Shown: positions 20,645-20,755 of the stretch, one piece after another
Layout of the letters: each line of letters begins with the position of its first letter
Position numbering within the stretch: position 1 is the first letter of the stretch
NCBI RefSeq assembly: GCF_044324875.1
Contig: NZ_CP172185.1
Source of the DNA: Escherichia coli
GTDB lineage: Bacteria > Pseudomonadota > Gammaproteobacteria > Enterobacterales > Enterobacteriaceae
DNA length: 64,000 nt
Strand: one strand, 5' to 3'
Notes under the pieces: model-generated
The model's database searches: none
Told to the model about the DNA's origin: nothing
What the model saw: only the letters and a program-made list of their open reading frames with translations
Translations under genes and position numbers: made by a program

Positions 20645-20654
20645 GGTCTGAATT

Positions 20655-20736
20655 GCCGGATGCGGCGTGAACGCCTTATCCGACCTACACATCGTCCCGT
20701 AGGCATGATAAGACGCGTCAGCGTCGCATCAGGCAT
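20655..20736. repeat. REP/BIME element (two inverted REP units)
   Basis: gccggatgcggcgtgaacgccttatccgacctac ... gtaggcatgataagacgcgtcagcgtcgcatcaggcat. Confidence 0.8.
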
Positions 20737-20755
20737 GGCACTCATCGCGATATGT

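What the first reader, a model, noticed from the sequence alone, without database searches (positions are those of the whole stretch)
20645..20755. kdpE directly abuts ybfP; the speF-potE ornithine decarboxylase/antiporter locus appears to be absent
In K-12, as I remember it, speF, potE and the ybfG pseudogene lie between kdpE and ybfP. Here only about 110 bp containing a REP/BIME separates them. That would be a strain-specific deletion, or an ancestral state lacking the insertion, with a REP at the junction.
Basis: partly seen in the sequence, partly recalled or inferred. Interest (0 to 1): 0.4.

Follow-up and report, generated by a model that had tools for sequence, protein, structure and literature searches.

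The report
E. coli kdpE–ybfP junction lacking speF–potE
This E. coli window really does lack the acid-inducible ornithine decarboxylase/antiporter genes (speF–potE) that sit between kdpE and ybfP in K-12, but this is one of several known alternative layouts of the locus, shared by about 5% of complete E. coli genomes, and is ordinary gene-content variation.

Summary
kdpE (19967-20644, +) and ybfP (20756-21250, -) are 111 bp apart. The spacer holds two inverted REP elements that form a BIME hairpin. In K-12 the same two stop codons are 5149 bp apart, with speFL-speF-potE, ybfI' and ybfG' between them.

The arrangement is not strain-specific: 253 of 5426 complete E. coli genomes have it, including the ST69/phylogroup D strain 118UI. 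It is also not a simple deletion from a K-12-like layout.

The kdpE-pgm interval has at least six alleles:
- A: K-12 type, 1928 genomes.
- B: kdpE-speFL-speF-potE-pgm without ybfP, the most common type.
- C: this window.
- D: kdpE-BIME-pgm, about 100 genomes.
- E: IS1 deletions.
- F: rare kdpE-ybfG-ybfP.

C equals D plus a 647-bp ybfP cassette bounded by direct 36-nt REPs. The D junction also occurs in E. whittamii and another divergent Escherichia.

K-12's ybfI is a decayed copy of the kdpE 3' end. It shows that the ybfG-ybfP module once lay directly downstream of a kdpE gene. K-12 is therefore the composite layout.

380 genomes lack both speF and potE. The finding is low in interest and already visible in public genomes.

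The parts
17286..19970 (+). kdpD, the sensor kinase. It overlaps the kdpE start by 4 nt.
   Evidence: The ORF ends at 19970. It is collinear with annotated kdpD of GMF054 and K-12. The start was inferred from the 894-aa RefSeq length.
19967..20644 (+). kdpE, the response regulator and last gene of the kdp cluster. Its stop codon is TAG, against TGA in K-12.
   Evidence: Translation. 95.9% nt identity to K-12 kdpE; homology to K-12 ends at the stop codon.
20645..20755 (.). It consists of a BIME (REP1 + 9-nt linker + inverted REP2) and short flanks.
20654..20689 (+). REP1, Y-type (TGCCGGATGCGGCGTGAACGCCTTATCCGACCTACA). It is the left direct repeat bounding the ybfP cassette and is shared with the speF-less D allele.
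   Evidence: family D1; 0 mismatches to consensus; collinear with the D alleles L005, L007, L008.
20699..20734 (-). REP2, Z2-type and inverted. It pairs with REP1 in the BIME hairpin.
   Evidence: The type was assigned from my memory of the Gilson/Bachellier REP classes.
20690..21336 (.). The 647-bp segment present in allele C and absent from allele D: linker, REP2, ybfP and REP3.
   Evidence: window 19967-20689 and 21300-23200 both map onto ETEC4071 and overlap on a single REP there; start-to-start spacing of 647.
20756..21250 (-). ybfP, an orphan Cys-rich lipoprotein of 164 aa with lipobox LLLTAC. An in-frame upstream ATG extends the ORF to 21301.
   Evidence: RefSeq nt; only 27 clusters, no Pfam; dN/dS 0.2.
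21301..21336 (+). REP3, Y-type and 94% identical to REP1. It is the right direct repeat of the ybfP cassette.
21373..21399 (-). An inverted Z-type REP. With REP3 and the 36-nt linker AAAATAGCGCAAATTCAATATATTGCACCATCTTCC it forms a second BIME (BIME-1/RIP-like) between ybfP and pgm.
   Evidence: The same element is the whole kdpE-pgm spacer in D alleles.
21411..21440 (.). A GC-rich hairpin flanked by A and T runs, immediately downstream of pgm. It looks like a bidirectional intrinsic terminator. It is the right-hand limit of variation in all alleles.
   Evidence: I4; conserved in alleles A, B, C and D and in E. albertii.
21455..23095 (-). pgm, phosphoglucomutase.
   Evidence: 99.8% aa identity to K-12 Pgm.

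Best explanation
The window carries one established haplotype, here called allele C, of a multi-allelic hot spot between kdpE and the pgm terminator. Its layout is kdpE - BIME (Y-REP, inverted Z-REP) - ybfP (convergent) - BIME - pgm. It has no speFL-speF-potE cassette and no ybfG.

Shown:
- C differs from the simpler speF-less allele D (kdpE-BIME-pgm) only by a 647-bp ybfP segment bounded by direct 36-nt REPs.
- The D junction (kdpE TAG, about 10 nt, Y-REP) is also present in E. whittamii and in another divergent Escherichia genome.
- K-12's layout (allele A) contains a decayed 142-nt copy of the kdpE 3' end (ybfI) just upstream of ybfG-ybfP.

Inferred:
- The speF-less state here was inherited, or moved by homologous recombination through the conserved kdpDE and pgm flanks. 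It is an old haplotype and not a recent deletion.
- ybfP entered or left at a REP.
- K-12's arrangement is the later composite. It would have formed when a kdpE-speFL-speF-potE segment was joined by an illegitimate crossover into the 3' end of the kdpE of a ybfP-bearing, speF-less haplotype.
- At greater depth, the cassette-bearing allele B is probably the older state in Escherichia, because E. albertii has it at genome-typical divergence. On that view the speF-less D/C lineage is itself an ancient loss.

Functional consequences, inferred from established knowledge of these genes:
- The strain lacks the low-pH, ornithine-induced decarboxylase SpeF and the putrescine/ornithine antiporter PotE.
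- It must rely on SpeC and SpeA/SpeB for putrescine.
- The BIME hairpin serves as the 3'-end structure for the convergent kdpE and ybfP transcripts.
For: Anatomy and breakpoints.

K-12 order and the ybfI repeat. ybfI is 88-92% identical to Escherichia kdpE 3' ends, 81-82% to Citrobacter, and has an in-frame stop.

Population counts in 5426 complete genomes:
- Allele C: 253.
- Allele A: 1928.
- C + D: 353.
- Genuine speF: 5046.
- potE: 5046. Hence 380 genomes lack both, and nearly all of them are accounted for by C + D.
- ybfP: 2112.

Other alleles read directly: B in Nissle, E with IS1, D, F.

Outgroups:
- kdpE-pgm adjacent in Serratia, Pantoea, Dickeya, Yersinia, E. whittamii and some Citrobacter and Enterobacter.
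- The cassette at exactly this site in E. albertii and in species of more than 10 Enterobacteriaceae genera.

Old divergence: ybfP dS = 0.17 and dN/dS = 0.2 between the window and K-12. The Nissle and E. albertii cassettes are 87% identical, similar to their flanks.

A second, independent kdpE-remnant scar next to BIME-ybfP occurs in a metagenome contig.
Against: - Polarity between C and D (ybfP gain or REP-REP deletion) and between B and D (cassette loss or gain) is not proven. No tree-based ancestral reconstruction was done.
- The flanking genes are mosaic and do not group alleles cleanly. The window's kdpE is about 95-96% identical to the A, B and D examples alike.
- E. fergusonii, E. marmotae, E. 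ruysiae and Salmonella were not among the 80 loci returned.
- Absence of speF-potE elsewhere in the source genome could not be tested. It rests on population accounting in other genomes.
- 81 speF-less genomes give an unexplained 60-80% identity match to speF. I attribute these to a paralogue, but never saw them directly.
- The functional statements were not tested.
Confidence: 0.75

Rival explanations
1. A recent, lineage-specific deletion of speFL-speF-potE-ybfI-ybfG from a K-12-like (allele A) ancestor, mediated by REP sequences.
For: K-12 has all these genes between the same two flanking genes. A REP/BIME lies at the junction, and REPs can mediate rearrangements (general knowledge).
Against: - K-12 has no REP next to the kdpE stop or between ybfG and ybfP. 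That 40-nt spacer is a simple hairpin.
- Homology ends exactly at both stop codons, and the stop codon itself differs, TAG against TGA.
- The repeat-mediated deletion that does occur in allele A gives kdpE-ybfG-ybfP and not this layout.
- The ybfP alleles differ by dS = 0.17.
- The kdpE-TAG-REP1 junction is shared with D alleles of other Escherichia species.
- 253 genomes share the layout.
Confidence: 0.05
2. Allele C is the primitive Escherichia state. Allele D arose from it by REP1-REP3 recombination that deleted ybfP, and the speF cassette alleles are later insertions into E. coli.
For: - Direct 36-nt REPs flank ybfP, and D keeps a single REP, the classic footprint of repeat-mediated deletion.
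- kdpE-pgm adjacency without the cassette is the state in non-Enterobacteriaceae Enterobacterales.
- ybfP alleles are old.
Against: - ybfP was not found at this locus in any of the 80 other species, including E. whittamii, E. albertii and the divergent Escherichia L007. Its homologues are essentially confined to E. coli.
- E. albertii has the cassette at divergence similar to its flanks. The cassette sits at exactly this site in many genera. Both points favour an old cassette.
Confidence: 0.15
3. Assembly artefact: a collapse or mis-join at a REP removed about 5 kb from the assembly.
For: REPs are repeated and can confuse short-read assemblers.
Against: The same junction, base for base, occurs in 253 complete genomes from many laboratories. 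The flanks are collinear for more than 16 kb with GMF054 and with NCBI contig L087.
Confidence: 0.01

Closest known systems
E. coli ST69 / phylogroup D type genomes (for example 118UI CP032515, NMBU-W13E19, WP8-S17-ESBL-12, SCU-313) and strain GMF054
   Same: Identical layout kdpD-kdpE-BIME-ybfP-BIME-pgm with no speF-potE. Identity over the 1.6-kb junction query is 98.3% for the ST69-type genomes and 99.8% for GMF054.
   Different: The window is not from any of these genomes. It is only 98.4% identical to GMF054 over 16.5 kb, and at most about 97.9% identical to any complete genome over 20 kb.
E. coli K-12 MG1655 kdpE-speFL-speF-potE-ybfI'-ybfG'-ybfP-pgm (allele A)
   Same: It has the same flanking genes in the same orientation, and the same REP3/BIME between ybfP and pgm.
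   Different: 5149 bp against 111 bp between the two stop codons. K-12 has no BIME next to kdpE. Its kdpE stop is TGA and not TAG. Its ybfP allele is 93.9% identical.
Allele D, kdpE-BIME-pgm (porcine ETEC4071 and O139:H1 strains, E. whittamii, a divergent Escherichia genome labelled E. coli SCPM-O-B-8794)
   Same: No speF-potE. It has the same kdpE TAG stop followed by a Y-REP, and the same linker, inverted REP and pgm terminator.
   Different: It lacks the 647-bp REP2-ybfP-REP3 segment.
REP/BIME extragenic palindromes of enterobacteria (Gilson, Bachellier and colleagues)
   Same: Y and Z type REP sequences in inverted pairs, extragenic, between convergent genes, forming a strong hairpin.
   Different: Nothing unusual. 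Subtype assignment (BIME-2-like next to kdpE, BIME-1/RIP-like next to pgm) is from memory of the consensus and was not tested against a curated set.

Membership tests
REP/BIME | An imperfect palindrome of about 35 nt with a conserved GCCGGATG or GCCTGATG head and a CCTAC tail. | tested here: met
   REP1 20655-20688 has 0 mismatches to the Y consensus. There are 4 copies in the window and 0 expected by chance. REP2 is at 20699-20734 and further Z-type copies exist. The consensus strings were recalled from memory.
REP/BIME | Two REPs in inverted orientation separated by a short linker, forming a mosaic element. | tested here: met
   REP1 (+) and REP2 (-) are 9 nt apart. The RNA fold is -46 kcal/mol with z = -3.63, and 0 of 200 shuffles fold as well.
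REP/BIME | Extragenic location, typically at the 3' ends of genes or between convergent genes. | tested here: met
   It lies between the stop codons of the convergent genes kdpE and ybfP.
REP/BIME | Many copies dispersed around the genome. | tested here: met
The 451-bp D-junction query hits a median of 15 places.
Absence of the speFL-speF-potE operon (relative to K-12) | The genes lie between kdpE and ybfP in the reference. | tested here: met
   K-12 annotation.
Absence of the speFL-speF-potE operon (relative to K-12) | The genes are absent from this interval and from the whole window. | tested here: met
   tblastn with SpeF, PotE, SpeFL and YbfG gives no hit at E <= 1e-3. Junction alignment.
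Absence of the speFL-speF-potE operon (relative to K-12) | The genes are absent from the rest of the source genome. | not testable with these tools
   Only the 64-kb window is available. As a proxy, 380 of 5426 genomes lack both genes, and 353 genomes carry allele C or D.
Simple deletion derivative of the K-12 layout | Both breakpoints map inside K-12 sequence, with the junction explained by sequence present in K-12. | tested here: not met
   The 108 bp at window 20643-20750 have no counterpart at the K-12 locus other than generic REP similarity.

The most novel reading that the evidence does not exclude
The kdpE-pgm interval is a long-lived cassette-exchange hot spot in Escherichia and across Enterobacteriaceae. 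The speFL-speF-potE operon has been repeatedly lost and regained by replacement through the conserved flanks. Decayed kdpE 3'-end fragments are scars of homology-facilitated illegitimate recombination. Two such fragments are K-12's ybfI and a 75-nt remnant in metagenome contig L088. On this reading the K-12 reference layout is a secondary composite built on a speF-less, ybfP-bearing haplotype like the one in this window. K-12's own speFL and speF 5' end (67-81% identical to other E. coli) would then be imported from an unidentified distant donor.
Probability: 0.5. Interest if true: 0.3.

Novelty: already known. Interest (0 to 1): 0.15.

Why it matters
The practical weight is small. Strains with this allele, including the uropathogenic ST69 lineage, should lack the acid- and ornithine-inducible SpeF/PotE system. 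This could affect mild-acid physiology, putrescine export and possibly decarboxylase-based biochemical typing. The locus also shows that the K-12 reference order is neither the commonest nor the primitive arrangement. That matters to anyone using K-12 synteny as a yardstick, or studying SpeFL regulation in non-K-12 strains.

Tried and rejected
- I looked for allele F (kdpE-ybfG-ybfP) as a possible progenitor, using a chimeric query. Only 5 genomes reached at least 80% coverage, and 2 of them have the clean layout. CUWW10 is clearly a secondary deletion from allele A, with the crossover in the last ~19 nt of the kdpE/ybfI repeat. F therefore does not settle polarity.
- I hoped a 65%-identical YbfP (P0013) marked a distant species. 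Its contig is ordinary E. coli, 97% identical to the window, with allele C.
- I tried to see the 81 genomes that give a 60-80% identity speF match by listing 60 spread rows. They fell between sampled ranks. The potE count and the 70.5% speF/speC identity suggest paralogue hits, but these genomes were not seen directly.
- Gene trees or identity matrices of kdpD, kdpE and pgm do not group alleles by type. The flanks are mosaic.
- A search for the donor of K-12's divergent speFL region among 80 species found nothing closer than 79%.
- NCBIfam gave nothing for YbfP, and the homologue search listed no Pfam domain for any YbfP cluster.
- Literature searches found no paper on this junction. They found only that ybfP is enriched in phylogroup A (PMC5422975) and that speF is among the metabolic genes most often pseudogenised (PMC13322260). 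A search for speF plus ST69 found nothing relevant.

Full report
**1. Observation**

The kdpE ORF runs from 19967 to 20644 on the + strand, ending in TAG, and translates to a 225-aa KdpE. On the minus strand an ORF at 20756-21301 encodes YbfP. RefSeq annotators call the 164-aa form, 20756-21250. It is 93% identical to K-12 YbfP.

The spacer 20645-20755 is 111 bp. It holds a Y-type REP at 20654-20689 (+) and an inverted Z-type REP at 20699-20734 (-), 9 nt apart. As RNA it folds into a long hairpin of -46 kcal/mol, z = -3.6.

The MG1655 annotation gives pgm-ybfP-ybfG'-ybfI'-potE-speF-speFL-kdpE, with 5149 bp between the ybfP and kdpE stop codons. No SpeF, PotE, SpeFL or YbfG coding sequence exists anywhere in the 64-kb window.

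**2. Breakpoints**

Against K-12, homology on the left ends at the kdpE stop codon (window TAG, K-12 TGA). On the right it resumes 4-5 nt beyond the ybfP stop. The roughly 108 bp in between have no counterpart at the K-12 locus apart from generic REP similarity. K-12 has no REP at either breakpoint, and its ybfG-ybfP spacer is a plain 40-nt hairpin.

K-12's pseudogene ybfI is a decayed copy of the last 142 nt of kdpE. It is 90-92% identical and has an in-frame stop. In K-12, speFL-speF-potE is therefore flanked by direct repeats of the kdpE 3' end.

**3. The locus is multi-allelic**

Searches of 5426 complete E. coli genomes, and direct reading of examples, give the following alleles.

| Allele | Layout | Genomes |
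|---|---|---|
| A | kdpE-speFL-speF-potE-ybfI-ybfG-ybfP-pgm | 1928 |
| B | kdpE-speFL-speF-potE-pgm, no ybfP (Nissle 1917, read directly; speF-potE-bearing genomes not of type A, such as O157:H7, ST131 and APEC, are inferred to be this type) | by subtraction, the commonest class |
| C | the window's layout | 253 |
| D | kdpE-BIME-pgm | about 100 (C + D = 353) |
| E | IS1-associated deletion | example FAM21845 |
| F | kdpE-ybfG-ybfP-pgm | 2 clean examples |

- Genuine speF is found in 5046 genomes, and potE also in 5046. So 380 genomes (7%) lack both.
- C + D = 353 accounts for nearly all of these. This argues that allele-C genomes do not carry the operon elsewhere.
- ybfP is present in only 2112 genomes.
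- Allele-C genomes include 118UI, which is ST69, phylogroup D (PMC8900328). They also include several genomes that served as closest references for ST69 isolates (PMC7952442).
- The window itself comes from a lineage not closely represented in the collection. It is 98.4% identical to GMF054 over 16.5 kb, and at most about 97.9% identical to any complete genome over 20 kb.

**4. How C relates to the other alleles**

- **C and D.** C equals D plus a 647-bp segment (window 20690-21336) holding the linker, REP2, ybfP and REP3. This segment is bounded by direct 36-nt Y-REPs that are 94% identical (REP1 and REP3), and D has a single REP.
- **D in other species.** The D spacer is kdpE TAG, about 10 nt, Y-REP, an AT-rich linker, an inverted Z-REP and the pgm terminator. 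It is the same in E. coli ETEC4071, in E. whittamii, and in a 94%-identical Escherichia genome labelled E. coli SCPM-O-B-8794.
- **B.** Allele B has no REP at all. The cassette runs from just after kdpE to within about 15 nt of the pgm terminator.
- **Deletion products of A.** Deletion between K-12's own repeats gives allele F and not C. In CUWW10 the kdpE gene is K-12 type up to the last ~19 nt, and the sequence after it is the ybfI downstream region.
- **Age of ybfP alleles.** The window and K-12 ybfP alleles differ by dS = 0.17 with dN/dS = 0.2, and all eight cysteines are conserved. ybfP is thus a real, constrained gene, and the two haplotypes are old.

Together these results exclude a recent one-step deletion from a K-12-like ancestor.

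**5. Outgroups and polarity**

I anchored on KdpE and retrieved 80 species loci.

- kdpE-pgm-seqA are adjacent without the cassette in Serratia, Pantoea, Dickeya, Pectobacterium, Yersinia and Buttiauxella. The same is true of some Citrobacter and Enterobacter species, E. whittamii and the divergent Escherichia genome.
- speFL-speF-potE sits at exactly this site in E. albertii and in species of Citrobacter, Enterobacter, Kluyvera, Lelliottia, Leclercia, Atlantibacter, Cedecea, Trabulsiella, Phytobacter and others.
- Presence or absence therefore varies within genera.
- No ybfP or ybfG was found at the locus outside E. coli. YbfP has only 27 clusters in 5.8 billion proteins; all those that carry a source name are E. 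coli, and none has a Pfam domain.
- The Nissle and E. albertii cassettes are 87% identical, close to the divergence of their flanks. This is consistent with vertical descent of allele B.

My reading is as follows:
1. B is probably the older Escherichia state.
2. D is an old loss, or an imported empty allele.
3. C is D plus ybfP.
4. A is a later composite. In A, a kdpE-speFL-speF-potE segment was joined illegitimately into the 3' end of the kdpE of a ybfP-bearing, speF-less haplotype, which left ybfI as the scar.

Steps 1-3 are inferred from distribution. Step 4 is supported by ybfI itself. It also gains some support from an independent metagenome contig with kdpE-BIME-(75-nt kdpE remnant)-BIME-ybfP, though this is a short assembly and should be treated with caution.

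The flanking genes are mosaic and do not sort by allele. No formal reconstruction was possible.

**6. Function (inferred)**

SpeF is the low-pH-induced ornithine decarboxylase. PotE is the putrescine/ornithine antiporter. SpeFL is the ornithine-sensing leader peptide. All of this is established knowledge from K-12. A strain with allele C lacks the whole module and depends on SpeC and SpeA/SpeB for putrescine; those genes lie outside the window. The BIME hairpin lies where the convergent kdpE and ybfP transcripts must end, and BIMEs are known to stabilise 3' ends and attenuate transcription. None of this was tested here.

**7. Comparison with the known, and novelty**

The same junction is present and annotated in 253 public complete genomes. 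REP/BIME elements and presence/absence polymorphism of accessory operons are textbook. I found no paper describing this junction. The only related statements are that ybfP is enriched in phylogroup A (PMC5422975) and that speF is among the most frequently pseudogenised metabolic genes in E. coli (PMC13322260). The finding is real but ordinary. Its mildly interesting aspect is that the K-12 reference layout is the derived composite.

**8. Verdict**

- Observation: confirmed.
- Interpretation: partly supported.
- Interest: 0.15.
- Novelty: already known.

Noticed in passing
window 10649-12305: The 9.6-kb RhsC element that lies between ybfA and ybgA in K-12 is absent. In its place is a 1.66-kb AT-rich segment (28-37% GC) with three small minus-strand ORFs of 135, 94 and 117 aa. 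The 117-aa ORF matches the SMI1/KNR4 (SUKH-1) immunity-protein family weakly (E = 2e-4). The segment looks like orphan polymorphic-toxin immunity genes left at an empty rhs site.
   Followed up: partly
window 41236-41719: The metT-leuW-gln tRNA array has 5 genes (Met, Leu, Gln-UUG, Met, Gln-CUG) against 7 in K-12. One copy of each tandem Gln pair is missing.
   Followed up: partly
L001 (K-12) 9100-10056, not in the window: The first ~900 bp of the K-12 cassette cover the kdpE-speFL spacer, speFL and the 5' end of speF. They are only 67-81% identical to allele-B and GF31-type E. coli, while the rest is 95-100% identical. No donor closer than 79% exists among 80 Enterobacterales species. The K-12 speFL region appears to be a foreign import.
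   Followed up: partly
whole window versus E. coli genomes: Over 20 kb of housekeeping genes (pgm to asnB) no complete E. coli genome exceeds about 97.9% identity at full coverage. The nearest junction match, GMF054, is 98.4% identical over 16.5 kb. The source strain seems to belong to a lineage poorly represented among 5426 complete genomes.
   Followed up: no
E. coli genomes, speF query: 81 genomes that lack speF and potE still give a match of 60-80% identity and under 80% coverage to K-12 speF. This is compatible with a speC-like paralogue (K-12 speC is 70.5% identical over 1757 nt), but K-12 speC itself shares no 28-nt word with speF. The nature of these hits is unresolved.
   Followed up: partly
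L088 (metagenome contig ERZ27234728 k141_89467): The contig shows kdpE-BIME followed by a degenerate 75-nt kdpE 3' remnant, a second BIME and a divergent ybfP allele (79% aa identity). This is a second kind of kdpE-remnant scar at this locus. The contig is a short assembly, so it may be an artefact.
   Followed up: partly
window 52120-52282: An sroC sRNA lies between the gltI-like and gltJ-like ORFs, as in K-12. It is an ordinary feature.
   Followed up: no
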